Source of the DNA: Trypanosoma brucei
Lineage: Eukaryota
NCBI GenBank assembly: GCA_000002445.1
Contig: CM000207.1
Coordinates: forward strand, 1,120,001-1,184,000
Reading direction: 5' to 3'
Length of the DNA: 64,000 bases
How positions within the stretch are numbered: the stretch's first letter is position 1; every line of letters starts with the position of its first letter. Both the position numbers and the translations under genes were made by a program. The notes beneath the pieces were generated by a model. It was not told the origin of the DNA. It made no database searches and saw only the letters and a program-made list of their open reading frames with translations. Below are positions 14,567 to 50,749 of this stretch, in pieces.

Positions 14567-16964
14567 GCGCACTTTTTCAACCACCGCTTTTCTTTACAAA
14601 CTCTAGTCCCTTTAAATGGCTCTTTGAACACACCTCCACAAAGTTTACCAAGAAGTAAAAAATGAGTGAAAACGGAGCAGAAGATGCCTGCCGCGTTGAG
14701 CAGTGCACTCACTTGCCTGTGCGCATTGTGATGGCCATACTGTTTTCAACGCCCACTAAAAAATGACCATTCCTCTCATTATTTAAGCGAATGAACTATA
14801 TATTTACAAAACATTTTTGCATGTATTAGTTTATATCAAAAGTGCCAATTTTCTAACCAGAACAAGGGGATGCACAACTGCGAAAACAGCGTTACTAAAA
14901 TAAAATTAGGTAGCAAACGCAGAATCTGATTTGGTGCATGCAGGTGCTGGGGAATTTGTGATATTTTCCAGTTTGAATTCTTAAGAATTGTACACCTTTG
15001 CTTTCGGTAAAAATTCTCAACTTCTTTCAGCTTGGCTTTTGCATCCTATTTAGCTTTAGCTTTAGCGTTTCGTTGGTATTTTTGATTTTCCACTATCTGT
15101 AATTCTGGATTCGTTACCCGCTACGACTGCAACAAATCCACGCCTCTACCTTCCATTAAAAGTTCATCTATATACTGAATTGGCTTTTGATTTTTTTCTT
15201 TAGTTAGCACCTTGCTTCTCAATTTCGAATTTCCTCCACCACACTTCCCATACCTACATCAACTGACTTCTAATTTGAAAGTTATTTTCTCACCATCTTC
15301 TAGTTTATCCGGGCGTGGTTTTGTCCATTTTCAACTCTGCCCTCTCTAATTTTGGAATGGGTTGTAAAAGCCACTTCTGACGGGTTCAAATTGTTTGGAC
15401 CGTCGACACTCGACGCCATTTTGACGAAACTTCCAATGAAAGCCGGTTCTTTCCTTGATTTTCGGCCAAAAACGACGAAATTCGTTGCCTTTGTTGAGCG
15501 CCCGCCTCGCGTGACATCAAAGATTTTAATTTCCTCCACAATCTTATGACCACTTGCTCCTATAACCAAGCACTTTGACTCACCTTGACAGTTCCTTTCG
15601 ACAACCTCCCACCCGCTGGCGGCCAGATCTCCTACACAGAAACGGTTGTGTCCTTGTTCTCTCTGTGGAAACATATTTATTCTTTCATCAATATTCCTCC
15701 CGTTTACAGTGCCAGTTTTGTTTCCTCTTTTCGTAAAGCTTCTGACTCCCCAGTTTCGCCAGTGATCCTCTAATCACCATAATTCATGCGAGGTCACACA
15801 CCCTGATAAAATTAAGGCATCTTTACCATGCCAACTTTAACATGTCAAGGAAGGTTTAGGACATTTACAACGAGCCCTTAGTTTATTCTATCTGTTCACA
15901 AACCCTCACTCAAAGTCCCTGTTTTGATATACCACAGACCTTTGTGGAGCCGCCTGAGTTTAGAGGAATTTCCGATCCAGCGATGGTATTTCTTATCCCT
16001 GCACCGGTTGAACAAGTGAGGAATTCGTCATAAAAGGTGGCGCATTCGAATGTGATGATATTCAATCCGCAGTTTAAACCACCAGCATTGCCTAATTTTC
16101 CGAAGCGAAGTTTTTTCCGGGACAAAACATACGCATAACTTCTTTATGATTTTCCCTAAACAAGAAAGAATCAAATTTGATGTTGTCATAATTTTTCAAT
16201 AATAATAACAAAGAAAAGATATTAGCACTCTCTGAGGTTCGCTCACTTAAATTTTAAATGCAGATATTAATAGTGGTAAGTCTCGTGAGCCACTCTTTCA
16301 CTTTCTAAGAGTAGAGCAAACGACTCCAGCTCCTGAAGGTGTTTTGGAAAAGCAGCTCTCTCCGCAACCTCTTTTTGAAATTGTGAAGTATGATATTCCT
16401 AGATCTATTAGGAATACACGACCTCCGATGCTGAAACAAACAAAAACATTGCTTACTTACTAGCCATTAGCCCCGTAGTTAAAAACCTTTACTAGAGTTT
16501 TAATAAGTCATCTTTTTGACTCAAAAGAGGTAACGTGTCATGTGTATGATATCAATCACTACACTTGATGCGAACTCATCCTCACGCACTACATACAGAG
16601 TGCCTGCAGAGTCAGGAAACTTTGTGTAAAAACAACAAAAAACCTCCGCGTTTCTTCCTTAAGTTTGTAGACAATATTTTGAAGTAATTATATTGTGGGC
16701 TAAAACTGATCCATAATTACTTCCTTTCTCTCCAGCTCCACCTTCTCGTCGCACCATAATTGCCTTTAGAAGAGGTAATAAATCACCTGTTTTTCTCAAG
16801 TACAACTGCGACGTTGTCGTTATGGTTTGTTTTTCCCTTCTAGAACGTTAATCATCCACATTCCATGTAACCTTTACCTTTATAAAATATGACACTAAAA
16901 TCCACTATTATCCACATTTATATTGTTATTATTAACATAAAGAAGCCACGCGTGTTAGATTGCG

Positions 16965-18110
16965 TTATATCAATAGCAACAAATACACCAACAGAGGTGA
17001 AATGATTTGAGTTTCATTTTTTGGTCGAAGTGGCTTTTGTGATTGTCGTGACGATTCTGTAGTGTTTGTTTCTCTTGAACTAAACGGATCAGTGTCCGTA
17101 GTAGTTTGCGTATTTGTATTTGCATTTGTACCTGATGTTACGGATGCCTCGCTCTCTGCTGCTGTTTGAGGGTGTTGTGGGTGTGGCTGAGCTGGGAGTG
17201 GTTTATTTTTTTCTTCCACATTTTGCTCCGGGGGTTGCACAACAGGTTGTGAAACCCTAGGTTGTTGGTGCGTTTTCCCTCCTTCTGGATTATTTTCTTT
17301 CGATACTGGCGGCCCCTCATTCTTTCTTGCCTCGTTTTGAGGGTTGGCCAGTTTTTCGATAAGTTTTTCCAGTCGTGTAAGCCACTCGACGTTCAGCCTT
17401 CCCGTTTCCTCACCTCCCAGTTTGTACATAACACAAGGGGCGTCCCTCAGATTATCTGAAGCTCCGCAGGATTGAGTGATTGGTGGACTTCCGTGTCCAA
17501 AGCGCTTTGTTTCGCTGTTTCCCGTTCCTCTTTCCCTTTCCTTTAGTTTTGTTGAAAGATTCTCCTTCATTGTTTTCAAAGTTTTGGCATCAGGTCTCGC
17601 AGCGTAAATTGCTGTGGAACATTTTTCCATAACGCTTTTCCAATGCTGTTCTGCTTGTGTTCCGTTGCTCCAGCTTTATTCACCATTTTGCCATATGTTG
17701 CTTTCATAGCACAGATTGACCATTTCGCCTTTACCATTTTGTGGCTTGCACAAACACAGAAGATCTACTGCCAACGCTTTACCTGCAAAAACAACTTCAC
17801 TCGACGTCACTGCATCTACGTAACCGCAGTCATTATAGCGTCGATCTTTTCCATTCCAATTAAGGGAGCCATCACTTCCATCTCCGTACAATATTGTGTT
17901 TATGGTAGTGTTATATTCGTTTTCATTGTCGCCTACTTCATCCTCGTTTTGTTTAACCAACTCTCGTATTCCCAGTGTTAAATTTAAAAAACTGCATAGT
18001 GTGTCAAATTCTTCTTTATTCTTTACGGAGCCGTCTGGGGATGCCTGACAACTCACTTCTTTTATCACCAAAACCAGGCATATCAAAAACCTAACTGAGT
18101 ATTTCCACAT
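16965..18110 (-). pseudogene. VSG-like (B-type) surface protein gene inactivated by a nonsense mutation; the intact paralogue is 38886..40031
   Basis: Copy 2 encodes an uninterrupted 381-aa protein (...NIWQNGEESWSNG...). In copy 1 the minus-strand codon GAA (Glu) is TAA, so plus-strand 17676-17678 reads tta where the partner has ttc at 39596-39598. This splits the gene into ORFs 17676..18110 and 16965..17630. Only 3 other amino-acid differences separate the copies. Confidence 0.8.
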
Positions 18111-19013
18111 TTTCTTGGCTTTCCCGTCTAACTCCTAAGTTTCAGAGGAAGAATTTGTTCAGCGAGTTTCGCAAACATTAAAACATATTTTTGATCTTCA
18201 AATAGAAGCGCAAATTTATATTATACATGCACCATCATACAAGTAATGCACCACGTTAGAATGTGAAAACATTCAGTTAAATTACTGATGGGTAAGCATC
18301 ATTCGCTGCTGGGGCAAATCATTGTTGCATTCAGAGTCGACAACTAATCAATTATGTGCAATTTTGCTTTGCAACAAAAGAAATGCTTATTTTCTTGATG
18401 TGCGTGTTTACTCTTCACCCCTGCGGATCACCATTAACAGGAGCAAACCCTCTTCTTCATCACTTTAAAAACAGAAAAAATGCATCACATACTAGTTCTC
18501 ACACGCTCCAAAAAATTTCGCTTTATAATGTACTTTTTAGAAAGGTTTTCATGGTCCACATGGCTTCAGTGGTCATTCAATTTCACGACAGGTTACCTCT
18601 CTACACAGATCGCGCAGTGCACCACTCCAATAGTCCCTTTTTTACTTCATACCCTTCATAGACTCTGACCCTGTGAAGAGGGGGAGTAGAAGCATGCTCA
18701 CTCGTGGATCGCGTCCGCAGAAAAAATAAAAATATTCTATTACTATATACGCGGACTACGCTACAAGTATAGAATCCTATAATCCATTATGAATGTGTTT
18801 TCTGTTCTTTAGACCGAGGTGTACGCATTTACACCTTCCTACAGTCAAGCTATACGCACAAATCATAGAACGAAATGATAAATTGTAACGGGGGTAAAAC
18901 GTAATGGATGTGTCTCCAAACACGATTATCATCGAATCAATATAGCTAAAGTGATGTGGACTCCAAGTTAGTAATCCCAAAAACAAAACCATTGCACAAA
19001 ATACAACATTGAA

Positions 19014-20129
19014 TCACATAACCAACATTTCTGCAAAAAATATTAGACCTATTATGGCGTGTTGCTTCCTCATTTTGAATCCTTCTTCATCTATAACATC
19101 GTCTTCATCCTCACCTCCCTTGCGCTTCTTCCCACTCTCCTTGAAATATCTACGCACTATCGGGCTCTGAGTTAACAATTCTTTTAGTTTATTTTCATGC
19201 TTTGCAAAGGATGTAAGGGTTGGCTGTACATCACGGTACTGTTTTGTAATACTTTCATATCCTCTTCTAACCAAAGTGTAGTTCTTGATCAGTTCGCGCA
19301 CCATGTCACTAGATTTCAGAATAACGGCAGAATCTTTTTTGTAGGTAACAAACCCTCCAGTAGTCCCCACTATGAAAGATCCAGGTCCTCCATTTGCAAC
19401 CTTTTCCGTGCCCATGATCCAGCACTTTGTGCTGTTATCGGCTGTTAGTTCGACTTCTCGGTTAGCTGTGTATTTTTTAAGCACAGACAATATACCATCA
19501 TCTGAATTATCCTCAGTGAAAGACATATTACATTTGTTTGGGGCTTCCGCTGCTTCGTATTTGCAATTACCTTCCCCACCACTTCCACATCCATTCTCAC
19601 CTCCCGAAGAGCCTGCTTCCTTCACCAAACAACACCATTTACTTTCTTCATCCTTCGTTTTCTCAAACAATACTACCAAATCCCTCAATACTTGTCCAAT
19701 TGACAGTGATGCATTCACAACATGATAGGAGACTCTCACAATGTCTAAGAAACTAGCATCCATTACCTGAAGAGCATTATCCATATTATTCATTACTTTT
19801 TCCATTTCCACATATGTTTTCTTTACATTTTTCATCTCACTTCCATTAACAACCCCTATCTTCTCCAGACCCTGCACTATTGCTTTCCATGTTCTCCCCT
19901 TTACACCATGCCGATGCCGCCATTCCCGAAACTTATCTACCATTCCTGTCGCATTTTGGTGCTTCTTCAGAATCTCAGCACTCACAACCCTTAAGGCATG
20001 ACTGAGGTTACACAATGTTTCAGCTCCCTTGAGAGTCATAGCCTTTCCAGAAGGTTGCCCCTCCACTGTCCCAGTGACAATGCCAAACACTGTCAGGCAC
20101 ACTGCAAGAAAAAGTGATATCACCTTCAT
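19014..20129 (-). CDS. VSG-like surface glycoprotein (371 aa), signal peptide plus C-terminal hydrophobic tail
   Basis: ATG start verified. Signal peptide MKVISLFLAVCLTVFGIVTGTVEG. A Cys-containing central block (CCLVKEAGSSGGENGCGSGGEGNCKYEA). C-terminal acidic stretch then hydrophobic AIIGLIFFAEMLVM. Same family organisation as the neighbouring B-type genes. A paralogue lies at 40935..42050 with 6 aa differences. Confidence 0.65.
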   Translation of the reverse strand: MKVISLFLAVCLTVFGIVTGTVEGQPSGKAMTLKGAETLCNLSHALRVVSAEILKKHQNATGMVDKFREWRHRHGVKGRTWKAIVQGLEKIGVVNGSEMKNVKKTYVEMEKVMNNMDNALQVMDASFLDIVRVSYHVVNASLSIGQVLRDLVVLFEKTKDEESKWCCLVKEAGSSGGENGCGSGGEGNCKYEAAEAPNKCNMSFTEDNSDDGILSVLKKYTANREVELTADNSTKCWIMGTEKVANGGPGSFIVGTTGGFVTYKKDSAVILKSSDMVRELIKNYTLVRRGYESITKQYRDVQPTLTSFAKHENKLKELLTQSPIVRRYFKESGKKRKGGEDEDDVIDEEGFKMRKQHAIIGLIFFAEMLVM

Positions 20130-20296
20130 TATTTATCTAAAAACGAAACAAGTTTACTTGAGGCAATTTAATACAGTATATCTCATTAGAAACTAACACG
20201 CACATGAACACACATATGCATACATACACACCATTTTAAATGCAACAAAGACGCAAAAAAAACATAACATAACATATTTGGTAATGTAATATTAAA

Positions 20297-21715
20297 CTAA
20301 AAGATAAGAATAAGAGATAAGAATAATAACAATATAAACCCCCACGTTTCCATATTCAAATGAGTAAGTCCATCATTATTTACCTCAGTATTATCACCTT
20401 CGCTGTCACCCTTTACTCGGCTACTTTTCCATAGCTCTGCATCACCACCTAGTTTCACCTCAAGAAATATTTCCTCGGCCTCGTGTTGATACTCTTCCAA
20501 CTCATGAAGATGACTGTCAGCTTCTTTTGAATATTTATCCATTTCTTGCAGTTGCTCGGTAGCGTTAGTAAGACGATTGTACCATGGAATTCCACCATTT
20601 TCAAGTGTGTACTTGTAACTGACACATGTGAATCCAGCAGTATGACCCGTGCATGTCCGATTTTCGTTTTTATCAGTTCTCACATAACCAAAAATACCCT
20701 TCACCTGATATTTATCCTGTTCCAAATTCACTAAGGCATCAAACTGAGCTAATGCACTTTTCAAAGTCTTTACATTCGATGCAACGTTTTTGTACACACA
20801 AGCTTTACTAATCACATCCCATGCCTCAGTGTAATTGTATGTTATGTTGTCTGGGCTGCAGGGGCTGCTATTGGCCTCACAGTAATTTGCCATCATTGTC
20901 CAACTTCCATTTTTTGGTCTTCTTATTTCATCTTTACAAGGACAATTGAACCCATTATAAACACTATCACTATATTTGCCCTTACCGCTCTCTTCTTTTT
21001 TTTTATCTTCATTATCTTCATTATCTTCTTCCTCTTTCTCGTCTCTTTTCTGCCTCATATCTTCAGTCACATTTATAGCCTCTCCCACACATAGACAGAA
21101 AAAGTCATTGATTAGTGTCTTTCCAACCAGCTTGTCTCCATAAGAACCGCAACTCGTGCCTGCATTATCAATACTATTGAACAGCAGTGACTTGTTTCCC
21201 CTCATGGCTTTCTCTAGAGTTTTATTCTCATTTCGTGCCACATCCACAGCGTCTCCATACACAGCTTTCAACATATTGTCTTCGGCAGAACGACTTGCAT
21301 TTAACGCTTTTGTCCTATTCACTTCTATTTCTTCCTTCAGCTTTTTCGCCTTTTCAAGCAGTTGTATCATCAACTGATATGCTGTCGTGCTGTTAGATGA
21401 ATTGCTCGAGCCTTTATTACTTCCAGCGGCCCCCACCACACTGACCATTTCCTCCAACTCATTCAGAATATTAGCTTCTTTCTCACGGTTCTTGAAAGAG
21501 GGTTGTGGTGCTTCTGCCTGCGTAATTCGGTAAATTTTGCACAGTGTCTCGAACTCACCGACGTTATGGTATTTGTAACTATCGTCGATGTAATCCGTAA
21601 TGCTTCCCCAGTCAACCATATCAGGCCGCCATTTGTACGACCCCATATCTCCCTGAAAGGAAGGAGATAAAACAGCTGCAAAAAGCCCAACAGCGAACAC
21701 TATTTCACACCTCAT
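20297..21715 (-). CDS. Variant surface glycoprotein (472 aa), B-type N-terminal domain, GPI-signal-like C-terminus
   Basis: ATG verified. Signal peptide MRCEIVFAVGLFAAVLSPSFQG. B-type hallmark GKTLINDFFCLCVGEAINV. Multiple N-glycosylation sequons. C-terminal WGFILLLFLSLILIF. A paralogue lies at 42219..43637. Confidence 0.8.
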   Translation of the reverse strand: MRCEIVFAVGLFAAVLSPSFQGDMGSYKWRPDMVDWGSITDYIDDSYKYHNVGEFETLCKIYRITQAEAPQPSFKNREKEANILNELEEMVSVVGAAGSNKGSSNSSNSTTAYQLMIQLLEKAKKLKEEIEVNRTKALNASRSAEDNMLKAVYGDAVDVARNENKTLEKAMRGNKSLLFNSIDNAGTSCGSYGDKLVGKTLINDFFCLCVGEAINVTEDMRQKRDEKEEEDNEDNEDKKKEESGKGKYSDSVYNGFNCPCKDEIRRPKNGSWTMMANYCEANSSPCSPDNITYNYTEAWDVISKACVYKNVASNVKTLKSALAQFDALVNLEQDKYQVKGIFGYVRTDKNENRTCTGHTAGFTCVSYKYTLENGGIPWYNRLTNATEQLQEMDKYSKEADSHLHELEEYQHEAEEIFLEVKLGGDAELWKSSRVKGDSEGDNTEVNNDGLTHLNMETWGFILLLFLSLILIF

Positions 21716-24700
21716 TGTGGCTGTTTTTTTTACTTTTATCAGTTAAACAAATTGGAGAAAAACCTCATCATCGCAGTCATTATTGTTATTGGTAGACGCA
21801 CTCAACAGACGTATACAATGAAAAATATTGAAATTAATAAGTGCCTGGCTCAAACCAACTACAACAGGACCCAACAAAGAGTAAATCACATTCCAAAACA
21901 CATTTACATGAGTTCCCTCTCGTCATGCTGGATATCAACATAAAGTTCCTTTACAACTGTTTTGTTTCTCCAATATCTTCCTCCACCAAATTAACCTCCA
22001 CTACCTTAACTACCATTCTGGCTTGTCCCAATTTTCTAACTGAGTTGCGCTTCTATTTTCTGTATTTCCTCGTTAGTGACTTATCCACTACCCTAATGTG
22101 TACCTGCACTTTCATACTATTTTTTTTTCACATCCTGTACCAACTCCTTTAAACTCTGCTTCTGAGTCCCATTTAGCATATCCCGCTCTTTTCATAAGCA
22201 CATTGAAAATACTCTTCGTTACTCTTTTTGTGAGCATGTGCAGCTTCCCGTCCTCCATTTTCTTAGACGACACATTGTTTAATATAAAAGTTGTATCTTA
22301 AAAATACCATCAGTGGACACTTATTATTGAAGCCCTTGTTATACGGTGACGTTACGGGATATAATGTCAGTCACCAACACAAAAAAAACGGCTCCAGAAT
22401 AACAAGAGACCCTCTTTGTCACCACCCTCGTTAGAATTATTTACCACAATCAAAGATGTCACCATTCTTATAGATACGCTGGTGACAAAAAAGGAGGTCA
22501 CATACGTAACCATTTATCCTCTCAGTGAACTCTCATCACCTTTACTCCACACAAGTTCGTTACATTAGCAAAAAACAAACGGCAAAAACGCTACTTGGGT
22601 TAGCTCAAAATCAAACACTCCATCCTTACAGCAAATACAGAGAGCATTCACACACTCCATTCCCCCACAAAATACAGATGGTGGAGACAGCCACAGTTAT
22701 CACAACTCACAATTAAGATAACTCAAGCAAAGACACTCCAACGAAATAGACGACCAATAACACGAAACATGTGAGCACGGACATGCAACGTCTTGCATGT
22801 ATTTTATTATGGAGTAGGGGGAACGTATCCGAAAGTATTTGCTACACAGTAAAATTAGTAGTATTAGCCACGGCGCTATCGAGATGTGTCGAGCAGTACC
22901 GAATCACAGTTGTTGTGGATTTCGTTGAAATGTGGGTAGAAAAGAGGTAATGTTGGATAACGTGGCAACAAGCACGGAAGATGGATGGCCAGTAGTAGAG
23001 GCAAACATGTTAAATCTACCTTACTGGAACCGTTACTCTAAATGTGACAGAACACAGTGCCTTCATTTGCAACACTTATCACCGCACATATTTTCTTCCT
23101 TGCTCGACACATCGGCTTCCAGCCAAACACAAATATGGGAGACTACTGCAACGGTTTCCATTACTAACACTGTGTTTTTTCTGATTCCAGCGGCTTTTCA
23201 TACACGACCATGCAAAAAAACCAGCCCTTCAAACTATTCAACCGGCAATAATAAAGTGCACTAGGATAGTGCATTTTACTAGCTATTCCGAAAGATGTTC
23301 TGCCCTTGCTGTTGAGCTTACTGTAGCAATTTATCGCAGTGTTTCGTACCACCTTATCAAACGTAGTCAACTGCACATCCTCTACCATTTCGCTCCCGTT
23401 TTACTTAATTGGTATTCTTGTTACAATGCTGGATCCTTGACATTACCTGTTTCTTTTGCTGTTATCATTTAGGAAGGTTGAGACCCGTCATGTCCCTTTT
23501 GTGAATCCCATCCGTGACCAAATCAATTACAAACGGAGTGCCATGAATGCTTCTCGCTGTGTCCCCACTGTTGTGACAATAACACTTGTAATGCATGTCA
23601 GTCTAACAGCGTTTTATAACCTTTGAGCAGATTTCAATGGGCCCAATATAGACCACAAGGTGGGTAGCTATTGCATTGGCGTCTTCGTTCCGTCAACTCC
23701 TTTTTCCTGACTCAACAAGTCTCACCCAATCGAGTGCCAGCGCGCCAAAGCAACTGCATACTGTTCATTAGGTAGATCATTCCGCAAAGTTTTTTTTGGT
23801 CAGTCTGCTATATAGAGTGGACCGTCTAGGAAGGCTCTTTGTTTTTACCTCCTGCAAGGAAGGGTGAGAAACGCGCTCTCGTACGCCATTGCCTCTCGCT
23901 GCCTGCTCATGCATTCGAATTATTAAAAAGGTGCGCTCAGACATTCTCCCTGGTCCTACTCAACCAATGTCAGAAATGTCGGGTAAGATTTGTGTTTGAG
24001 GGTTGTGAGCAATCTTTGTTGAGGAAACTACCTGTCTACTGCCACCGCAACATCTGGCTGCTTGCAGGTTTATTTCCCCTTCCCGTGTTTCTGGCGCTGT
24101 GCAAATGCAAACACTTTCTCGTCTCCGAAGAGCAAGGTCTCACACTTCACTTGAATGGGCACTTCACCTTCGCCAGCAATCCCAGTTAGTGGCACTAACA
24201 AACCGCTTCAAGGAATACATTTGCTTTTGATAATTGTGCCACTTACTACGCCACTCTACAAGAAACACAAAACACAAACTAAACATGACGGCTTGAAACG
24301 ATAACGTTAAGACATGGTCACTGGGGAAGGGGTAAAGAAGACACATTATCTGCGATCAGGTTCACCTTACTAGCATGCATTTGTAGAATCATGTATATCG
24401 TGAATTCAACCACTGAAACAAAGAAAACTGCAGACCATTTACCAGCGCCTTCATGTTACAGTGCACCTATTATTATTAAGCTCAGAATAATGCGACGGCT
24501 AAGATTATTTGCAGCACGCATGCTCTTGTGGTTTAATTAAATCTGTCGTGGAAGCAAACCCGCAAAAGTAATGAAAAAAATATATAAGCAATGCACCCTT
24601 TAAACAAGTTGCGTTTCTTAAATGAAAAAACATCGGTGAGGCACCGTTTTTACCGTCATGAATTTCCTCGTTCAGATTATCACGCTTTTGAAACTTGTTT

Positions 24701-35084: not shown

Positions 35085-35344
35085 CGTTTTCTTCCAGGGA
35101 TGGAGCTACAAAAATTATACGAAACACTACTAAGAAACAAAAAAAATGGTCAATACGTATAATATGATGTATGGTAAGCTATTAATATAAATTCAAAGTT
35201 AGAGTGAATACACACAAACTTAAATACCATAAGCCATTCCAATTACGTCCCCCGCCGAAAAGGCGCTATAAACGCCACAAGGGTCCCTTCCATTGCTTCC
35301 AATACCTTTTCACCATATTTTTGTGATATCGTATAGCAACATTA

Positions 35345-37676: not shown

Positions 37677-38885
37677 CACTCAGACTTACACAACAACATC
37701 GTAGCCTATAGGTCACACACCCTGATAAAATTAAGGCATCTTTACCGTGCCAACTTTAACATGTCAAGGAAGGTTTAGGACATTTCTAACGAGTCCTTAG
37801 TTTATTCTATCTGTTCACAAACCCTCACTCAAAGTCCCTGTTTTTAGATACCACAGACCTTTGTGGAGCCGCCTGAGTTTAGAGGAATTTTCGATGCAGC
37901 GATGGTATTTCTTATCCCTGCATCGGTTGAACAAGTGGGGAATTCGTCATAAAAGGTGGCGCATTCAAATGTGATGATATTCAATCCGCAGTTTAAACCA
38001 CCAGCATTGCCTAATTTTCCGAAGTGTAGTTTTTTTCGTGGCAAAACATACACATAACTTCTTTATGATTTTCCCTAAACAAGAAAGAATCAAATTTGAT
38101 GTTGTCAATTTTTTAGTAGCAATAATGAGAATATATTGGTGACCCCTGAGGGTCCGCCCACTTAAATTTTAAATGCAGATATGGATAGTAGCAAGTCTCT
38201 TGAGCCTGCGTTTTCACTACCTAAGAGTAGAGCAAACGACTCCAGCTCCTGAAGGTGTTTTGGAAAAGCAGCTCTCTCCGCAACCTCTTTTGGAAAATGT
38301 GAAGTGTGATATTCCTAGATTCATTAGGAATACACAACCTCCGATACTGGAACAAACAAAAACATTGCTTACTTACTAGCCATTAGCCCCATAGAAATCT
38401 TCACAAGAGCTTGAGCACGTCACCCTTTTTGACTCAAAAGAGGTAACGTGTCATGTGTCTGGTCTCGTTCACTACACTTGATGCGAGCTCATCTTCATGC
38501 ATTACATACAGGGTGCATACAGAGTCAGGAAACTTCGTGTAAAAACAACAACAACAACAACAGACCTCCGCGATTCTTCCTTAAGTTTGTAGACAATATT
38601 GTGAAGTAATTATATTGTGGGCTAAAACTGATCCATAATCACTTCTTTCTCTCCAGGTCCACTTTCTGGTCGCACCATAATTGCCTTTAGAAGAGGTAAT
38701 AAATCACTTGTTTTTCTCGAGCACAACTGCGACGTTGTCATTATGGTTTGTCTTTCCCTTCTAGAATTTTAGTCATCCACATTCCAAATAAGTGTTACCT
38801 TTATAAAATATGACACTAAAATCCACTATTATTCATACTAATAATGTTATTATTAACATAAAGAAATCACGCGTGTTAGATTGCT

Positions 38886-40031
38886 TTATATCAACAGCAA
38901 CAAAATCACCAACAGAGGTGAAATAACTTGAGTTTCATTTTTTGGTCGAAGTGGCTTTTGTGATTGTCGTGACGATTCTGTAGTGTTTGTTTCTCTTGAA
39001 CTAAACGGATCAGTGTCCGTAGTAGTTTGCGTATTTGTATTTGTGTTTTTGCCTGATGTTACGGATGCCTCGCTCTCTGCTGCTGTTTGAGGGTGTTGTG
39101 GGTGTGGCTGAGCTGGGAGTGGTTTATTTTTTTCTTCCACATTTTGCTCCGGGGGTTGCACAACAGGTTGTGAAACCCTAGGTTGTTGGTGCGTTTTCCC
39201 TCCTTCTGGATTATTTTCTTTCGATACTGGCGGCCCCTCATTCTTTCTTGCCTCGTTTTGAGGGTTGGCCAGTTTTTCGATAAGTTTTTCCAGTCGTGTA
39301 AGCCACTCGACGTTCAGCCTTCCCGTTTCCTCACCTCCCAGTTTGTACATAACACAAGGGGCGTCCCTCAGATTATCTGAAGCTCCGCAGGATTGAGTGA
39401 TTGGTGGACTTCCGTGTCCAAAGCGCTTTGTTTCGCTGTTTCCCGTTCCTCTTTCCCTTTCCTTTAGTTTTGTTGAAAGATTCTCCTTCATTGTTTTCAA
39501 AGTTTTGGCATCAGGTCTCGCAGCGTAAATTGCTGTGGAACATTTTTCCATAACGCTTTTCCAATGCTGTTCTGCTTGTGTTCCGTTGCTCCAGCTTTCT
39601 TCACCATTTTGCCATATGTTGCTTTCATAGCACAGATTGACCATTTCGCCTTTACCATTTTGTGGCTTGCACAAACACAGAAGATCTACTGCCAACGCTT
39701 TACCTGCAAAAATAACTTCACTCGACGTCACTGCATCTACGTAACCGCAGTCATTATAGCGTCGATCTTTTCCATTCCAATTAAGGGAGCCATCACTTCC
39801 ATCTCCGTACAATATTGTGTTTATGGTAGTGTTATATTCGTTTTCATTGTCGCCTACTTCATCCTCGTTTTGTTTAACCAACTCTCGTATTCCCAGTGTT
39901 AAATTTAAAAAACTGCATAGTGTGTCAAATTCTTCTTTATTCTTTACGGAGCCGTCTGGGGATGCCTGACAACTCACTTCTTTTATCACCAAAACCAGGC
40001 ATATCAAAAACCTAACTGAGTATTTCCACAT
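38886..40031 (-). CDS. VSG-like (B-type motif) surface glycoprotein with Thr-rich C-terminal stalk and hydrophobic tail (381 aa), the intact copy
   Basis: ATG verified (MWKYSVRFLICLVLVIKEVSCQ, a signal peptide). FAGKALAVDLLCLCKPQNG. C-terminal NTNTNTQTTTDTDP... then ISPLLVILLLLI. It is the uninterrupted paralogue of pseudogene 16965..18110. Confidence 0.75.
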   Translation of the reverse strand: MWKYSVRFLICLVLVIKEVSCQASPDGSVKNKEEFDTLCSFLNLTLGIRELVKQNEDEVGDNENEYNTTINTILYGDGSDGSLNWNGKDRRYNDCGYVDAVTSSEVIFAGKALAVDLLCLCKPQNGKGEMVNLCYESNIWQNGEESWSNGTQAEQHWKSVMEKCSTAIYAARPDAKTLKTMKENLSTKLKERERGTGNSETKRFGHGSPPITQSCGASDNLRDAPCVMYKLGGEETGRLNVEWLTRLEKLIEKLANPQNEARKNEGPPVSKENNPEGGKTHQQPRVSQPVVQPPEQNVEEKNKPLPAQPHPQHPQTAAESEASVTSGKNTNTNTQTTTDTDPFSSRETNTTESSRQSQKPLRPKNETQVISPLLVILLLLI

Positions 40032-40934
40032 TTTCTTGGCTTTCCCGTCTAACTCCTAAGTTTCAGAGGAAGAATTTGTTCAGCGAGTTTCGCAAACATT
40101 AAAACATATTTTTGATCTTCAAATAGAAGCGCAAATTTATATTATACATGCACCATCATACAAGTAATGCACCACGTTAGAATGTGAAAACATTCAGTTA
40201 AATTACTGATGGGTAAGCATCATTCGCTGCTGGGGCAAATCATTGTTGCATTCAGAGTCGACAACTAATCAATTATGTGCAATTTTGCTTTGCAACAAAA
40301 GAAATGCTTATTTTCTTGATGTGCGTGTTTACTCTTCACCCCTGCGGATCACCATTAACAGGAGCAAACCCTCTTCTTCATCACTTTAAAAACAGAAAAA
40401 ATGCATCACATACTAGTTCTCACACGCTCCAAAAAATTTCGCTTTATAATGTACTTTTTAGAAAGGTTTTCATGGTCCACATGGCTTCAGTGGTCATTCA
40501 ATTTCACGACAGGTTACCTCTCTACACAGATCGCGCAGTGCACCACTCCAATAGTCCCTTTTTTACTTCATACCCTTCATAGACTCTGACCCTGTGAAGA
40601 GGGGGAGTAGAAGCATGCTCACTCGTGGATCGCGTCCGCAGAAAAAATAAAAATATTCTATTACTATATACGCGGACTACGCTACAAGTATAGAATCCTA
40701 TAATCCATTATGAATGTGTTTTCTGTTCTTTAGACCGAGGTGTACGCATTTACACCTTCCTACAGTCAAGCTATACGCACAAATCATAGAACGAAATGAT
40801 AAATTGTAACGGGGGTAAAACGTAATGGATGTGTCTCCAAACACGATTATCATCGAATCAATATAGCTAAAGTGATGTGGACTCCAAGTTAGTAATCCCA
40901 AAAACAAAACCATTGCACAAAATACAACATTGAA

Positions 40935-42050
40935 TCACATAACCAACATTTCTGCAAAAAATATTAGACCTATTATGGCGTGTTGCTTCCTCATTTTGAA
41001 TCCTTCTTCATCTATAACATCGTCTTCATCCTCACCTCCCTTGCGCTTCCTCCCACTCTCCTTGAAATACCTACGCACCATCGGGCTCTGAGTTAACAAT
41101 TCTTTTAGTTTATTTTCATGCTTTGCAAAGGATGTAAGGGTTGGCTGTACATCACGGTACTGTTTTGTAATTCTTTCGTATCCTCTTCTAACCAAAGTGT
41201 AGTTCTTGATCAGTTCGCGCACCATGTCACTAGATTTCAGAATAACGGCAGAATCTTTTTTGTAGGTAACAAACCCTCCAGTAGTTCCCACTATGAAAGA
41301 TCCAGGTCCTCCATTTGCAACCTCTTCCGTGCCCATGATCCAGCACTTTGTGCTGTTATCGGCTGTTAGTTCGACTTCTCGGTTAGCTGTGTATTTTTCA
41401 AGCACAGACAATATACCATCATCTGAATTATCCTCAGTGAAAGACATATTACATTTGTTTGGGGCTTTTACTGCTTCGTATTTGCAATTACCTTCCCCAC
41501 CACTTCCACATCCATTCTCACCTCCCGAAGAGCCTGCTTCCTTCACCAAACAACACCATTTACTTTCTTCATCCTTCGTTTTCTCAAACAATACTACCAA
41601 ATCCCTCAATACTTGTCCAATTGACAGTGATGCATTCACAACATGATAGGAGACTCTCACAATGTCTAAGAAACTAGCATCCATTACCTGAAGAGCATTA
41701 TCCATATTATTCATTACTTTTTCCATTTCCACATATGTTTTCTTTACATTTTTCATCTCACTTCCATTAACAACCCCTATCTTCTCCAGACCCTGCACTA
41801 TTGCTTTCCATGTTCTCCCCTTTACACCATGCCGATGCCGCCATTCCCGAAACTTATCTACCATTCCTGTCGCATTTTGGTGCTTCTTCAGAATCTCAGC
41901 ACTCACAACCCTTAAGGCATGACTGAGGTTACACAATGTTTCAGCTCCCTTGAGAGTCATAGCCTTTCCAGAAGGTTGCCCCTCCACTGTCCCAGTGACA
42001 ATGCCAAACACTGTCAGGCACACTGCAAGAAAAAGTGATATCACCTTCAT
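40935..42050 (-). CDS. VSG-like surface glycoprotein (371 aa), paralogue of 19014..20129
   Basis: Identical length. 6 amino-acid differences from copy 1, mostly charge-changing (E/K, S/R, K/R). Confidence 0.65.
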   Translation of the reverse strand: MKVISLFLAVCLTVFGIVTGTVEGQPSGKAMTLKGAETLCNLSHALRVVSAEILKKHQNATGMVDKFREWRHRHGVKGRTWKAIVQGLEKIGVVNGSEMKNVKKTYVEMEKVMNNMDNALQVMDASFLDIVRVSYHVVNASLSIGQVLRDLVVLFEKTKDEESKWCCLVKEAGSSGGENGCGSGGEGNCKYEAVKAPNKCNMSFTEDNSDDGILSVLEKYTANREVELTADNSTKCWIMGTEEVANGGPGSFIVGTTGGFVTYKKDSAVILKSSDMVRELIKNYTLVRRGYERITKQYRDVQPTLTSFAKHENKLKELLTQSPMVRRYFKESGRKRKGGEDEDDVIDEEGFKMRKQHAIIGLIFFAEMLVM

Positions 42051-42218
42051 TATTTATCTAAAAACGAAACAAGTTTACTTGAGGCAATTTAATACAGTAT
42101 ATCTCATTAGAAACTAACACGCACATGAACACACATATGCATACATACACACCATTTTAAATGCAACAAAGACGCAAAAAAAAACATAACATAACATATT
42201 TGGTAATGTAATATTAAA

Positions 42219-43637
42219 CTAAAAGATAAGAATAAGAGATAAGAATAATAACAATATAAACCCCCACGTTTCCATATTCAAATGAGTAAGTCCATCATTA
42301 TTTACCTCAGTATTATCACCTTCGCTGTCACCCTTTACTCGGCTACTTTTCCATAGCTCTGCATCACCACCTAGTTTCACCTCAAGAAATATTTCCTCGG
42401 CCTCGTGTTGATACTCTTCCAACTCATGAAGATGACTGTCAGCTTCTTTTGAATATTTATCCATTTCTTGCAGTTGCTCGGTAGCGTTAGTAAGACGATT
42501 GTACCATGGAATTCCACCATTTTCAAGTGTGTACTTGTAACTGACACATGTGAATCCAGCAGTATGACCCGTGCATGTCCGATTTTCGTTTTTATCAGTT
42601 CTCACATAACCAAAAATACCCTTCACCTGATATTTATCCTGTTCCAAATTCACTAAGGCATCAAACTGAGCTAATGCACTTTTCAAAGTCTTTACATTCG
42701 ATGCAACGTTTTTGTACACACAAGCTTTACTAATCACATCCCATGCCTCAGTGTAATTGTATTTTATGTTGTCTGGGCTGCAGGGGCTGCTATTGCCCTT
42801 ACAGTAATTTGCCATCATTGTCCAACTTCCATTTTTTGGTCTTCTTATTTCATCTTTACAAGGACAATTGAACCCATTATAAACACTATCACTATATTTG
42901 CCCTTACCGCTCTCTTCTTTTTTTTTATCTTCATTATCTTCATTATCTTCTTCCTCTTTCTCGTCTCTTTTCTGCCTCATATCTTCAGTCACATTTATAG
43001 CCTCTCCCACACATAGACAGAAAAAGTCATTGATTAGTGTCTTTCCAACCAGCTTGTCTCCATAAGAACCGCAACTCGTGCCTGCATTATCAATACTATT
43101 GAACAGCAGTGACTTGTTTCCCCTCATGGCTTTCTCTAGAGTTTTATTCTCATTTCGCGCCACATCCACAGCGTCTCCATACACAGCTTTCAACATATTG
43201 TCTTCGGCAGAACGACTTGCATTTAACGCTTTTGTCCTATTCACTTCTATTTCTTCCTTCAGCTTTTTCGCCTTTTCAAGCAGTTGTATCATCAACTGAT
43301 ATGCTGTCGTGCTGTTAGATGAATTGCTCGAGCCTTTATTACTTCCAGCGGCCCCCACCACACTGACCTTTTCCTCCAACTTCTTCAGAATCTCTCCTTC
43401 CTTCTCACGGTTCTTGAAGGGGGGTTGTGGTGCTTCTGCCTGCGTAATTCGGTAAATTTTGCACAGTGTCTCGAACTCACCAACGTTATGGTATTTGTAA
43501 CTATCGTCGATGTAATCCGTAATGCTTCCCCAGTCAACCATATCAGGCCGCCATTTGTACGACCCCATATCTCCCTGAAAGGAAGGAGATAAAACAGCTG
43601 CAAAAAGCCCAACAGCGAACACTATTTCACACCTCAT
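42219..43637 (-). CDS. Variant surface glycoprotein (472 aa), paralogue of 20297..21715
   Basis: Identical length. About 10 amino-acid differences. Six of these fall within a 20-residue window (QPSFKNREKEANILNELEEM versus QPPFKNREKEGEILKKLEEK). Confidence 0.8.
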   Translation of the reverse strand: MRCEIVFAVGLFAAVLSPSFQGDMGSYKWRPDMVDWGSITDYIDDSYKYHNVGEFETLCKIYRITQAEAPQPPFKNREKEGEILKKLEEKVSVVGAAGSNKGSSNSSNSTTAYQLMIQLLEKAKKLKEEIEVNRTKALNASRSAEDNMLKAVYGDAVDVARNENKTLEKAMRGNKSLLFNSIDNAGTSCGSYGDKLVGKTLINDFFCLCVGEAINVTEDMRQKRDEKEEEDNEDNEDKKKEESGKGKYSDSVYNGFNCPCKDEIRRPKNGSWTMMANYCKGNSSPCSPDNIKYNYTEAWDVISKACVYKNVASNVKTLKSALAQFDALVNLEQDKYQVKGIFGYVRTDKNENRTCTGHTAGFTCVSYKYTLENGGIPWYNRLTNATEQLQEMDKYSKEADSHLHELEEYQHEAEEIFLEVKLGGDAELWKSSRVKGDSEGDNTEVNNDGLTHLNMETWGFILLLFLSLILIF

Positions 43638-46600
43638 TGTGGCTGTTTTTTTTACTTTTATCAGTTAAACAAATTGGAGAAAAACCTCATCATCGCAGTC
43701 ATTATTGCTATTGGTAGACGCACTCAACAGACGTATACAATGAAAAATATTGAAATTAATAAGTGCCTGGCTCAAACCAACTACAACAGGACCCAACAAA
43801 GAGTAAATCACATTCCAAAACACATTTACATGAGTTCCCTCTCGTCATGCTGGATATCAACATAAAGTTCCTTTACAACTGTTTTGTTTCTCCAATATCT
43901 TCCTCCACCAAATTAACCTCCACTACCTTAACTACCATTCTGGCTTGTCCCAATTTTCTAACTGAGTTGCGCTTCTATTTTCTGTATTTCCTCGTTAGTG
44001 ACTTATCCACTACCCTAATGTGTACCTGCACTTTCATACTATTTTTTTTTCACATCCTGTACCAACTCCTTTAAACTCTGCTTCTGAGTCCCATTTAGCA
44101 TATCCCGCTCTTTTCATAAGCACATTGACAATACTCTTCGTTACTCTTTTTGTGAGCATGTGCAGCTTCCCGTCCTCCATTTTCTTAGACGACACATTGT
44201 TTAATATAAAAGTTGTATCTTAAAAATACCATCAGTGGACACTTATTATTGAAGCCCTTGTTATACGGTGACGTTACGGGATATAATGTCAGTCACCAAC
44301 ACAAAAAAAACGGCTCCAGAATAACAAGAGACCCTCTTTGTCACCACCCTCGTTAGAATTATTTACCACAATCAAAGATGTCACCATTCTTATAGATACG
44401 CTGGTGACAAAAAAGGAGGTCACATACGTAACCATTTATCCTCTCAGTGAACTCTCATCACCTTTACTCCACACAAGTTCGTTACATTAGCAAAAAACAA
44501 ACGGCAAAAACGCTACTTGGGTTAGCTCAAAATCAAACACTCCATCCTTACAGCAAATACAGAGAGCATTCACACACTCCATTCCCCCACAAAATACAGA
44601 TGGTGGAGACAGCCACAGTTATCACAACTCACAATTAAGATAACTCAAGCAAAGACACTCCAACGAAATAGAAGACCAATAACACGAAACATGTGAGCAC
44701 GGACATACAACGTCTTGCATGTATTTTATTATGGAGTAGGGGGAACGTATCCGAAAGTATTTGCTACACAGTAAAATTACTACTATTAGCCACGGCGCTA
44801 TCGAGATGTGTCGAGCAGTACCGAAGCACAGTTGCCATAGATTTCGTTGAAAAGTAGGTAGAAAAGAGGTAATGTTGGATAACGTGGCAACAAGCACGGA
44901 AGATGGATGGCCAGTAGTAGAGGCAAACATGATAACTCTACCTTACTGGAACCGTTACTCTAAATGTGACAGAACACAGTGCCGTCATTTGCAACACTTA
45001 TCACCGCACATATTTTCCTCCTTACTCGACACATCGGCTTTCAGTCAAGCACAAATAGGGGAGATTATTGCTATGATTCCCATTACTAACGGTGTGGGTT
45101 TTCTTGCCGTGAGTAGTGAGTAGCACACGTCCATTGCAGAATTCTAAACCCTCAATTGATTTAACCGGTCACTTATGGGATGCGATTTGGCGTGCAGTTT
45201 ATTGGTAATTCTCAGAGATGCACTGCCTTTGGTCGTGAGTCTACGATAACAATTTACTGCAAACGTTTGTACCACCTTATCAAACGTAGTCAACTGCACA
45301 TCCTCTACCATTTCGCTCCCGTTTTACTTAATTGGTATTCTTGTTACAATGCTGGATCCTTGACATTACCTGTTTCTTTTGCTGTTATCATTTAGGAAGG
45401 TTGAGACCCGTCATGTCCCTTTTGTGAATCCCATCCGTGACCAAATCAATTACAAACGGAGTGCCATGAATGCTTCTCGCTGTGTCCCCACTGTTGTGAC
45501 AATAACACTTGTAATGCATGTCAGTCTAACAGCGTTTTATAACCTTTGAGCAGATTTCAATGGGCCCAATATAGACCACAAGGTGGGTAGCTATTGCATT
45601 GGCGTCTTCGTTCCGTCAACCCTATTTCCTGACTCAACAAGTCTCGCCCAATTGAGTGCCACCGCACCAAAGCAACTGCATACTGTTCATTAGGTAGATC
45701 ATTCCGCAAAGTTATTTCGGTCACCTCGCCACGCAGACTAGCCAGCCCCAGAGGGTTTGTTGTTTTTACCTTCTGCTGAGGAGGTTGAAAATCACGTTCT
45801 CGTACGCCCTTTTCCCCCGCTGCCTGCTCATGCATTCGAATTATTCAAATGGTGCGCTCAGACATTCTCTCTGGTCCTACTCAACTAGTATCAGAAGTGT
45901 CGGTTAAGATTTGTGAGTGAGAGTTCTGAGCAGCTTCTTTCCAGGATACTGCTTGTCTACAGTCGCTACAACTTTTGGTTGCTTTCAGGCTTAAACACTA
46001 CTTCCTTTGTTTCCACCACTGTGCAAATGCAAACGCATTCTTGTTTCCCCCTTCCCTGTTCCACAGTATCCGGCGCGCTCCTAAGAATTGAATTGCCTGT
46101 ATCCCATGGTTACGGCACTTCCTTGGGTCGTACAATTGGTCCAGACAGTCTCTGCTAGTCTTGTTGCAGGTTTCTACCTCGGAAGAGTACGGTCTAACAC
46201 TCTGCTTGATTGGGCACCTCACTTTCGCCAGAAACTACAGTTACTGGCATAACCAATTAGCTTCAAGTAATACGCTTATATTGGTATTCACGAGATTTAT
46301 TACGCGTAAGTTGAAGTACTCATTAACAAGCGATAAGTAGAGTAAAGTTATAATCTTAAAGTCCAGTAGTGTCAAAAAAAGATAGTATATCCGCGGCCAG
46401 GTTAATCTTGCCAGTACACGTAGAATTATGCAAATAATAAAGTAATCAACCAAAAGAAAAAGTGCTAGCAATGTATTTTTCAGCGTCTTCTCGTTAAAAT
46501 TTTATTATTTCTGCGCTTAAGTTTGCGAGTTTCAATACAGTTTGCAGCAATTGTGCTACTATCTTAGTCAAATGGGTTTTGCAATCAACGCTTACAAAAA

Positions 46601-48164: not shown

Positions 48165-48421
48165 TATTTTCTTGCAAGATTTCGCGAAACAAATTATGCA
48201 AAACACTATTAGAAAAAACGCGGCCAACACATGTGGGTACAACACATAAAAAAATTATAATCATATTTGGATTTCGAGCGAACACACACAAACCAAAACA
48301 CTACATTTCATTCCGGTTATCCTATGCCGTTAAAAAGACAATCAAACTCTGCATGTGCCTCATCCACCTTCTTCAGGACATGCCCGCATCATTTCCGTGA
48401 GGCATTACCTAAGCGCATTAA

Positions 48422-50748: not shown

Positions 50749-50749
50749 A

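What the first reader, a model, noticed from the sequence alone, without database searches (positions are those of the whole stretch)
21420..21510. Tightly clustered substitutions inside otherwise identical VSG paralogues, the signature of a micro gene-conversion patch or local diversifying selection
The 472-aa VSG copies (20297..21715 versus 42219..43637) differ at about 10 residues. Six of these lie within 20 amino acids (residues about 70-90: QPSFKNREKEANILNELEEM versus QPPFKNREKEGEILKKLEEK). Over those 20 codons the DNA is much less similar than the surrounding near-identical sequence. Compare 21440-21500 with 43360-43420, where there are about 9 nucleotide differences in about 60 bp, all non-synonymous. 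This region is likely to be surface-exposed N-terminal domain.
Basis: seen in the sequence. Interest (0 to 1): 0.6.

Follow-up and report, generated by a model that had tools for sequence, protein, structure and literature searches.

The report
Short divergent patch in duplicated ESAG2
Two almost identical copies of a trypanosome surface-protein gene (ESAG2, a VSG relative) differ mainly in one 53-base stretch that looks like a tiny copied-in or mis-repaired piece of DNA, not like selection on single mutations; this is an ordinary kind of mosaicism for this gene family, though no source sequence was found.

Summary
The cluster is real. The two 472-aa ORFs differ at 15 nt and 9 aa. Ten of the nt differences and 6 of the aa differences lie in 53 bp (21447-21499, codons 73-90); uniform simulations never reached this (0 of 10^6). 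The genes are not VSGs. They are chromosome-internal ESAG2 copies of T. brucei TREU927 (XP_827087.1 and XP_827094.1), each followed by ESAG11, inside an 8.3-kb segmental duplication.

The changes are not all non-synonymous. In the patch Sd=3 and Nd=7, with pS 0.32 against 0.007 outside it and omega 0.43, so dN/dS gives no support for diversifying selection. Outgroups show that copy A carries seven unique derived bases, six of them in 20 bp (21460-21479). Copy B is family-typical there. No donor for the A variant was found in any data I could reach.

Clustered differences are general across the duplicated core and are enriched in coding sequence. A second orphan patch sits at the same codons in a T. 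equiperdum ESAG2. Codon 81 is a published site of diversifying selection.

The best reading is short-tract ectopic conversion or templated repair from an unsampled paralogue, possibly retained by selection. It is a new instance of known ESAG2 mosaicism and of modest interest.

The parts
21447..21499 (-). The patch in ESAG2 copy A (codons 73-90, CDS nt 217-269). It holds 10 of the 15 nt differences between the two copies.
21460..21479 (-). Core block of the patch (CDS 237-256). It carries six bases unique to copy A compared with copy B and all 8 sampled paralogues: AAA GAA GCT AAT ATT CTG AAT G, against the family-typical AAG GAA GGA GAG ATT CTG AAK A.
43369..43421 (-). Matching stretch in ESAG2 copy B. 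Its centre is family-typical. Unique derived bases occur only at CDS 217 (S73P) and 269 (M90K).
20297..21715 (-). ESAG2 copy A, 472 aa, identical to XP_827087.1 / EAN76757.1 (T. b. brucei TREU927).
42219..43637 (-). ESAG2 copy B, 472 aa, identical to XP_827094.1 / EAN76764.1.
19014..20129 (-). ESAG11 copy A (371 aa), immediately downstream of ESAG2 as in bloodstream expression sites. It differs from copy B at 11 nt and 7 aa.
40935..42050 (-). ESAG11 copy B (371 aa).
15791..24126 (.). Segmental duplication, unit 1. It carries ESAG2, ESAG11 and a small VSG_B-domain gene.
37710..46048 (.). Segmental duplication, unit 2. It is 95.9% identical to unit 1 overall and about 99.4% identical in the core.

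Best explanation
The patch records a very short ectopic gene-conversion or templated-repair event in one of two recently homogenised ESAG2 paralogues.

Shown:
- The two ESAG2-ESAG11 units are a segmental duplication whose core is about 99.4% identical.
- Copy A carries an anomalous 20-38 bp tract in codons 73-86. Copy B keeps the family-typical sequence there.
- Synonymous and non-synonymous positions are both changed.
- The changed residues 81, 82, 85 and 86 sit on the polar face of the first long helix of a class-B VSG-like domain.

Inferred:
- The tract was copied from a diverged ESAG2-like sequence that is not in protein databases, most plausibly a pseudogene.
- The direction could be the reverse. 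The A/B ancestor may have carried the odd tract, and copy B was then restored by conversion from an ordinary paralogue. TREU927 XP_001218906 (P0024) has the identical peptide FKNREKEGEILKKLEEM.
- Retention at this spot may have been helped by selection, because codon 81 is the published hot spot of diversifying selection in ESAG2.
- The changes at 21499 (S73P) and 21447 (M90K) in copy B are separate point mutations or stem-lineage changes.
For: (1) Clustering is far beyond chance: 0 of 10^6 simulations reached it.

(2) Silent sites diverge along with replacement sites inside the patch: pS 0.32 and pN 0.16 in the patch, against 0.007 and 0.003 outside it; omega 0.43. Three codons carry two changes each (TCT/CCC, GCT/GGA, AAT/GAG).

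(3) Polarisation used the syntenic T. b. gambiense copy and up to seven other paralogues. Seven bases are unique to copy A within 38 bp, and copy B matches the family there. In the 53 bp, ordinary paralogues differ from each other at 1-9 sites, while copy A differs from all of them at 9-13.

(4) Clustered differences are general in the duplicated core. Of 40 differences, 27 have a neighbour within 10 bp, against 5.1 expected. With the patch removed the figure is 18 of 30, against 2.9 expected. Neither was reached in 10^5 simulations.

(5) Differences concentrate in coding sequence, where dispersed paralogues share homology: 34 in 3681 bp of CDS against 3 in 2055 bp of non-coding (Fisher p=2e-4). 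Synonymous sites alone are 12-fold richer in differences than non-coding sites (p=6.5e-5).

(6) Published work reports dense recombination breakpoints in ESAG2, with a mean GARD tract of 129-161 bp (PMC2533676).

(7) Divergence from the gambiense copy is mosaic, 3-19% per 250 bp.
Against: - No donor for the copy A variant was found in any accessible data: 27 family proteins from TREU927, DAL972, Lister 427 BES and T. equiperdum; about 40 BES ESAG2 proteins in the supplement of PMC2533676; 8 paralogous DNA loci; and the 64-kb window at 12-mer level and with up to 3 mismatches in 21 nt.
- The A tract is more divergent than any sampled paralogue, so an ordinary family member cannot be the donor.
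- CDS positions 222 and 228 lie inside the patch. Copies A and B share C there, while every sampled paralogue has T. A continuous 53-bp tract from a typical donor is therefore excluded, and the event must be 20-38 bp long or patchy.
- TREU927 genome DNA outside this window could not be searched.
Confidence: 0.5

Rival explanations
1. Non-templated clustered mutagenesis. An error-prone repair event at a break in this stretch, such as translesion synthesis or microhomology-mediated repair, introduced several substitutions at once. Purifying selection then kept only versions that preserve the frame and the hydrophobic face of the helix.
For: - No template was found anywhere that could be searched.
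- The A tract is an outlier to the whole family.
- Multi-nucleotide clusters are common across the duplicated core, including three consecutive bases at 19547-19549 and four changes in 8 bp at 17123-17130.
- Changed residues avoid the hydrophobic positions I83, L84, L87 and V91.
Against: - Seven substitutions in 38 bp, with no indel and mixed transitions and transversions, is denser than I would expect for a multi-nucleotide mutation event. This rests on my own knowledge, not on a tool result.
- The excess of differences in coding sequence over non-coding sequence is not predicted by a sequence-blind repair process.
- No hairpin or quasi-palindrome is present that could drive template switching.
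Confidence: 0.2
2. Local diversifying selection fixing successive point mutations in an exposed epitope or ligand-contact helix of ESAG2.
For: - Codon 81 has the highest omega in this region in all three published BES ESAG2 repertoires (4.5, 4.3 and 6.6). Codon 84 reaches 3.1 in T. b. gambiense (PMC2533676, Suppl. Table 3).
- Residues 81, 82, 85 and 86 lie on the polar face of helix 77-99.
- ESAG2 is on the cell-body surface membrane (PMC4587319).
- Net charge of residues 78-90 differs by 3 between the copies, read directly from the sequence.
- A second lineage changed the same codons, including the same E82N change.
Against: - Omega in the patch is 0.43 and pS is about 40 times background. 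Selection on protein does not raise silent divergence.
- Codons 73, 82, 86 and 90 are under purifying selection in BES ESAG2, with omega 0.07-0.8.
- Clustered differences also occur in non-coding sequence and in ESAG11.
Confidence: 0.12
3. The patch is a remnant of older divergence. The two units are old duplicates, a long A-to-B conversion recently homogenised the core, and this stretch escaped it, for example through patchy heteroduplex repair.
For: - The edges of the duplication are 5-30% diverged while the core is about 0.6% diverged.
- Derived states of both copies are interleaved within the patch.
Against: - This does not explain why copy A's tract is more divergent than any paralogue. 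A special event in A's history is still needed.
- Residual islands should not favour coding sequence.
Confidence: 0.1
4. Sequencing or assembly artefact in the reference, such as a miscalled stretch or a mis-recruited read in one copy of a near-identical repeat.
For: - The copies are embedded in an 8.3-kb repeat whose core is about 99.4% identical, which is hard to assemble.
- No independent assembly of this strain could be checked.
- The exact proteins were not on record in the contig index.
Against: - All 10 differences are substitutions, the frame is intact, and the hydrophobic heptad is preserved.
- A mis-placed Sanger read from a paralogue that is 80-90% identical would carry differences over hundreds of bases, not 53 bp flanked by 60 and 210 identical bases. 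This is inference.
Confidence: 0.08

Closest known systems
Recombination mosaicism of ESAG2 in bloodstream expression sites (Young et al. 2008, PMC2533676; Hertz-Fowler et al. 2008, PMC2567434)
   Same: It is the same gene family. The pattern is the same: short tracts of differing ancestry inside otherwise similar genes, with a published mean tract of 129-161 bp. The same hypervariable codon 81 is involved.
   Different: Here the copies are chromosome-internal, not telomeric. The tract is much shorter (20-53 bp). [quoted passage not shown]
Segmental (mosaic) gene conversion of VSG genes from pseudogene donors in T. brucei antigenic variation
   Same: Short stretches of a VSG-fold surface-protein gene are replaced using diverged, often pseudogene, donors. 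Both silent and replacement sites change.
   Different: This is not an expressed VSG in an expression site, and there are no 70-bp repeats or telomeric repeats in the window. It is a germline difference between two paralogues, not a switch event. The comparison rests on my general knowledge of VSG switching and was not tested here.
Interlocus micro-conversion in multigene families (for example MHC, or CYP21A2/CYP21A1P in humans)
   Same: Tracts tens of bp long carry several linked substitutions in otherwise near-identical duplicates. Pseudogene donors introduce residues that are unusual at conserved sites.
   Different: In those systems the donor is known. Here it is only inferred.

Membership tests
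ESAG2 family (Fam2 of the trypanosome cell-surface phylome) | Significant full-length similarity to annotated ESAG2 proteins | tested here: met
   Identity is 68-98% over 97-100% of the length to 14 ESAG2/GRESAG2 clusters, with E down to 0. Both copies are exact matches to RefSeq 'ESAG2, putative' entries.
ESAG2 family (Fam2 of the trypanosome cell-surface phylome) | b-type VSG-derived N-terminal domain | tested here: met
   Pfam VSG_B scores 84 bits against a cutoff of 25. The best PDB matches of the AF2 model are class-B VSGs (VSG615, mVSG1954, VSG11, VSG3), with E from 2e-5 to 1e-2. The derivation from b-VSG is stated in PMC3605285.
ESAG2 family (Fam2 of the trypanosome cell-surface phylome) | Located in a telomeric bloodstream expression site (the literal meaning of 'expression site-associated') | tested here: not met
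   The array is flanked by housekeeping genes: RNB exoribonuclease, PhyH dioxygenase and a nucleoside transporter. There are no 70-bp, 50-bp or telomeric repeats. These are therefore chromosome-internal 'genes related to ESAG2'.
ESAG2 family (Fam2 of the trypanosome cell-surface phylome) | ESAG11 immediately downstream, as in the conserved BES order ...ESAG2-ESAG11-ESAG1 | tested here: met
   The downstream 371-aa ORF matches ESAG11 at 62-98% identity. The BES gene order comes from PMC2567434.
Canonical variant surface glycoprotein (VSG) | VSG C-terminal domain, and closest relatives that are VSGs | tested here: not met
   Only VSG_B was detected and no VSG C-terminal domain family. All 15 homologue clusters are named ESAG2 or GRESAG2, and none is named VSG.
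Canonical variant surface glycoprotein (VSG) | Upstream 70-bp repeats, or a position in a subtelomeric array or expression site | tested here: not met
   No such repeats occur in the window, and the flanks are housekeeping genes.
Gene-conversion tract | Differences clustered beyond chance and flanked by identity | tested here: met
   Ten of 15 differences lie in 53 bp, never reached in 10^6 simulations. The flanks are identical for 60 bp and 210 bp.
Gene-conversion tract | Silent-site divergence raised together with replacement divergence inside the tract | tested here: met
   pS is 0.32 in the patch against 0.007 outside it, with omega 0.43.
Gene-conversion tract | An identifiable donor that carries the tract's variants | tested here: not met
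   No sequence carries the copy A variant in any data I could reach. The rest of the TREU927 genome, including pseudogenes, could not be searched with these tools.
Site under diversifying selection | dN/dS above 1 in the region | tested here: not met
   Omega is 0.43 in the patch and 0.49 for the whole gene.
Site under diversifying selection | Overlap with codons shown to be positively selected in the family | tested here: inconclusive
   Codon 81 has published omega values of 4.3-6.6. Codons 73, 82, 86 and 90 have omega 0.07-0.8 (PMC2533676, Suppl. Table 3).

The most novel reading that the evidence does not exclude
ESAG2 codons about 78-86 form a recurrent, site-specific replacement hot spot. 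The same 20-23 bp was rewritten independently in TREU927 chr9 copy A (CDS 237-256) and in the T. equiperdum chr11 orthologue (CDS 233-255). Both events changed codon 82 from GAG to AAT, both altered codon 81, and neither has a detectable donor. This would imply a targeted diversification process, either templated from a hidden donor class or a local hypermutation, centred on the positively selected codon 81 of a surface protein with a VSG-like fold.
Probability: 0.08. Interest if true: 0.7.

Novelty: new member of a known kind. Interest (0 to 1): 0.3.

Why it matters
ESAG families are the little-understood companions of VSG in host adaptation. It is already known that ESAG2 genes recombine and that codon 81 is under diversifying selection. 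This locus adds a clean case: two copies otherwise about 99% identical, with outgroups, in which a 20-50 bp tract changed as a unit in a chromosome-internal copy. It also shows that divergence between the duplicated units consists mainly of such micro-clusters concentrated in coding sequence.

If a donor is found, the case documents micro-conversion between dispersed ESAG2 genes or pseudogenes and core-chromosome copies. If no donor exists anywhere in the genome, the recurrence at the same codons in T. equiperdum would deserve attention as a possible local mutagenic process.

Tried and rejected
- **Exact look-up of both ESAG2 proteins in the contig index.** Neither was on record, and the same held for the TREU927 paralogues P0005 and P0011. 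TREU927 DNA outside the window was therefore not available.
- **Donor search in the window.** No k-mer of 12 or more, and no 21-mer with up to 3 mismatches, matched the A variant. A 15-mer from copy B's patch recurs in ESAG11, but it is family-typical sequence, so I rejected it as a template.
- **Donor search in paralogues.** I checked 27 proteins, 8 DNA loci including an unannotated ESAG2-like gene upstream of a T. equiperdum ESAG11, and the published ESAG2 alignment. None carries the A variant.
- **Positive selection.** Rejected on dN/dS.
- **Hairpin or quasi-palindrome template switching.** DNA folding z-scores were about 0 for both copies.
- **Polypurine tract as a fragile site.** Copy B has a 16-nt purine run at CDS 232-247, but the gene has longer runs elsewhere without differences, and the patch is not exceptional in purine content. 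This was not pursued.
- **Structured RNA on either strand.** There were no Rfam matches in the window.
- **General hot spot in the family.** Among 28 close protein pairs, only the A/B pair and the T. equiperdum chr11 pairs are strongly enriched at residues 71-92. The region is not a universal hot spot.
- **Collection scans.** I did not scan the viral, metagenome or bacterial collections, because they cannot contain trypanosome paralogues.

Full report
**1. What is at the coordinates**

The ORFs 20297-21715(-) and 42219-43637(-) both encode 472 aa. They lie in an 8.3-kb segmental duplication, 15791-24126 vs 37710-46048, which is 95.9% identical overall. Its core (about 17200-22900) is roughly 99.4% identical, and its edges are far more diverged.

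A gap-free comparison gives 15 nucleotide and 9 amino-acid differences. Ten nucleotide differences fall at window 21447-21499, which is CDS 217-269 or codons 73-90. They produce S73P, A81G, N82E, N85K, E86K and M90K. One purely silent change (K79 AAA/AAG) and silent third-position steps in codons 73 and 81 sit among them.

In 10^6 uniform placements of 15 differences, the largest number in any 53-bp window was 8. The cluster is real and not due to chance.

**2. What the genes are**

Pfam finds only VSG_B (84 bits). All homologues are ESAG2 or GRESAG2 proteins of T. brucei subspecies. The two ORFs are exact matches to XP_827087.1 (copy A) and XP_827094.1 (copy B). Both are 'ESAG2, putative' of T. 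b. brucei TREU927, on a 3.06-Mb chromosome record.

The syntenic T. b. gambiense locus is on FN554972.1. By accession order this is chromosome 9, which is my inference.

The ORF immediately downstream (19014-20129 and 40935-42050) is ESAG11. This reproduces the ESAG2-ESAG11 order of bloodstream expression sites (PMC2567434).

The array is flanked by housekeeping genes: an RNB exoribonuclease, a PhyH dioxygenase and a nucleoside transporter. There are no 70-bp or telomeric repeats. These are therefore chromosome-internal ESAG2-related genes, not VSGs and not expression-site copies.

An AlphaFold2 model (mean pLDDT 64, but 84-94 over residues 60-170) best matches class-B VSG N-terminal domains. 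This agrees with the published derivation of ESAG2 from b-type VSG (PMC3605285).

**3. Selection test**

| Region | Sd | Nd | pS | pN | omega |
|---|---|---|---|---|---|
| Whole gene | 5 | 10 | 0.018 | 0.009 | 0.49 |
| Patch, codons 73-90 | 3 | 7 | 0.32 | 0.16 | 0.43 |
| Outside the patch | 2 | 3 | 0.007 | 0.003 | 0.37 |

These are Nei-Gojobori counts. Silent divergence rises about 40-fold in the patch, together with replacement divergence. A stretch with a different history, imported or rewritten, gives that pattern. Selection on point mutations does not.

**4. Which copy changed**

T. b. gambiense DAL972 has a single syntenic unit (L001), 88-91% identical to the window. I used it, five other gambiense paralogues and two T. 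equiperdum genes as outgroups.

- Copy A carries unique derived bases at CDS 219, 237, 242, 243, 244, 246 and 256. At 243, two paralogues (L002, L003) also have T.
- Copy B is unique only at 217 and 269.
- Position 255 is polymorphic in the family.
- At positions 222 and 228, inside the patch, A and B share C while all sampled paralogues have T.

The anomalous block is therefore essentially CDS 237-256 (window 21460-21479), plus position 219.

In the 53 bp, ordinary paralogues that differ by 14-24% gene-wide differ at only 1-9 sites from each other. Copy A differs from every one of them at 9-13 sites, while copy B differs from them at 5-9. Copy A's tract is thus an outlier to the whole sampled family.

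**5. Donor search**

The A-specific peptide and DNA are absent from all of the following:
- 27 ESAG2 family proteins from TREU927, DAL972, Lister 427 BES and T. equiperdum;
- the roughly 40-sequence BES ESAG2 alignment in the supplement of Young et al. 2008;
- eight paralogous DNA loci, including an unannotated ESAG2-like gene found upstream of a T. equiperdum ESAG11;
- the 64-kb window.

Copy B's central tract is identical to several paralogues, but that is the ancestral, family-typical state and says nothing about a donor. The direction of the event therefore stays open. Either A was overwritten from an exotic donor, or the A/B ancestor had the exotic tract and B was restored from an ordinary paralogue. 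TREU927 P0024, for example, has the identical peptide across residues 74-89. TREU927 DNA outside the window could not be reached.

**6. Context: the process is general at this locus**

Of the 40 A/B differences in the core (16965-22700), 27 have a neighbour within 10 bp, against 5.1 expected. With the ESAG2 patch removed, 18 of 30 do, against 2.9 expected. Neither value was reached in 10^5 simulations. Examples are three consecutive bases in ESAG11 (19547-19549, AE to VK) and four changes in 8 bp at 17123-17130.

Differences are also concentrated in coding sequence: 34 in 3681 bp against 3 in 2055 bp of non-coding, p=2e-4. With the patch removed the result still holds (p=0.005). Synonymous sites alone are 12-fold richer in differences than non-coding sites (p=6.5e-5).

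A sequence-blind mutation process, or protein-level selection, would not raise silent coding divergence above intergenic divergence. Ectopic exchange with dispersed paralogues, which share homology mainly in coding sequence, would. The mosaic 3-19% divergence from the gambiense copy points the same way.

**7. Relation to published work**

Young et al. 2008 (PMC2533676) found dense recombination breakpoints in ESAG2, with a mean tract of 129-161 bp. They also found site-wise diversifying selection. In their Supplementary Table 3, which uses the same residue numbering as here, codon 81 has omega 4.5, 4.3 and 6.6 in T. b. gambiense, T. b. brucei and T. equiperdum. Codon 84 has 3.1 in gambiense and codon 85 about 1. 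Codons 73, 82, 86 and 90 have 0.07-0.8.

So one of the six changed residues is a known hypervariable site, and four are normally conserved.

In the model the patch spans the end of loop 67-76 and the first two-thirds of helix 77-99, which pairs with helix 107-153. On a helical wheel, residues 81, 82, 85 and 86 lie opposite the hydrophobic stripe formed by I83, L84, L87, V91 and V94. The net charge of residues 78-90 differs by three between the copies. ESAG2 localises to the cell-body surface membrane (PMC4587319). Selection may therefore have influenced which rewritten tract survived, even though it did not generate the pattern.

**8. An unexpected parallel**

The T. equiperdum IVM-t1 chr11 ESAG2 (P0021, L007:3001-4368) is 97% identical to its TREU927 and gambiense orthologues. 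It nevertheless has 16 nucleotide changes in CDS 211-255, thirteen of them in 233-255. These give 7 amino-acid changes at residues 71-84 (REREGEIV to RGKETNTI). The cluster is again beyond chance (0 of 2x10^5 simulations). pS is 0.69 in the patch against 0.03 in the rest of the gene.

Like copy A, it changes codon 82 from GAG to AAT and rewrites codon 81, and it has no detectable donor. The two rewritten blocks coincide almost exactly (237-256 and 233-255).

Across 28 close protein pairs the region is not a general hot spot. I cannot exclude a polishing artefact in that long-read assembly. This parallel remains unexplained.

**9. Verdict**

'VSG' should read ESAG2. Diversifying selection is not supported by dN/dS. 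A micro-conversion or templated-repair origin is the best-supported mechanism (confidence about 0.5), but it lacks its decisive proof, a donor.

The rivals are:
- non-templated clustered mutagenesis (0.2);
- selection on serial point mutations (0.12);
- an island that escaped homogenisation (0.1);
- artefact (0.08).

It is a further instance of known ESAG2 mosaicism, at a core-chromosome locus and on an unusually short scale. Interest is modest (0.3). The recurrence in T. equiperdum is the only element that could raise it.

Noticed in passing
L007:3211-3255 (T. equiperdum IVM-t1, CM010682.1), compared with L003:1211-1255: A second orphan patch sits at the same ESAG2 codons. It has 16 nt and 7 aa changes in 45 bp of an otherwise 97% identical orthologue. 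It includes the same GAG to AAT change at codon 82, has pS 0.69 in the patch, and has no donor in the available data.
   Followed up: partly
window 17676-17678 (-), within 16965-18110; intact counterpart 38886-40031: The small VSG_B-domain gene downstream of ESAG11 has a premature TAA at codon 145 in unit 1 (GAA in unit 2). The unit-1 copy is therefore probably a pseudogene. I did not determine which family this gene belongs to.
   Followed up: partly
window 16965-22700: Differences between the two duplicated units are about 6 times denser in coding than in non-coding sequence. Synonymous sites are 12 times richer in differences than intergenic sites. This is the reverse of what neutral divergence would give.
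   Followed up: yes
window 19962-19976 and 41883-41897 (ESAG11) vs 43380-43394 (ESAG2 copy B); also L002:1244 and L002:2724: The 15-mer GAGATTCTGAAGAAG (EILKK) occurs both in the ESAG2 patch region and in the neighbouring ESAG11-type gene, in TREU927 and in a gambiense locus. This could be chance, deep homology or past exchange between the two gene families.
   Followed up: no
window 35340-37676 vs 48416-50752: A second duplicated segment is 99.5% identical and carries a 367-aa VSG_B-domain ORF. The array has the layout [unit][spacer][367-aa gene][unit][spacer][367-aa gene]. The gambiense DAL972 assembly shows only one unit.
   Followed up: partly
L001:10001-11420 (T. b. gambiense FN554972.1): The syntenic gambiense ESAG2 is cut to 363 aa by a single-base insertion relative to the TREU927 copies. 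It is only about 89% identical to them, with mosaic divergence of 3-19% per 250 bp. That is far more than I would expect between these subspecies, judging from my own knowledge.
   Followed up: partly
window 25331-26119, 34308-35084, 47379-48245 (all -): Three ORFs of 258-288 aa have a signal-peptide-like start, a Ser/Thr/Pro/Gln-rich body and similar hydrophobic C-termini. None has a Pfam match. They look like a small family of mucin-like surface proteins interspersed in the array.
   Followed up: no
window 19547-19549: Three consecutive bases differ between the two ESAG11 copies (AE vs VK at residues 194-195). All three changes are derived in unit 2 relative to the gambiense copy.
   Followed up: partly
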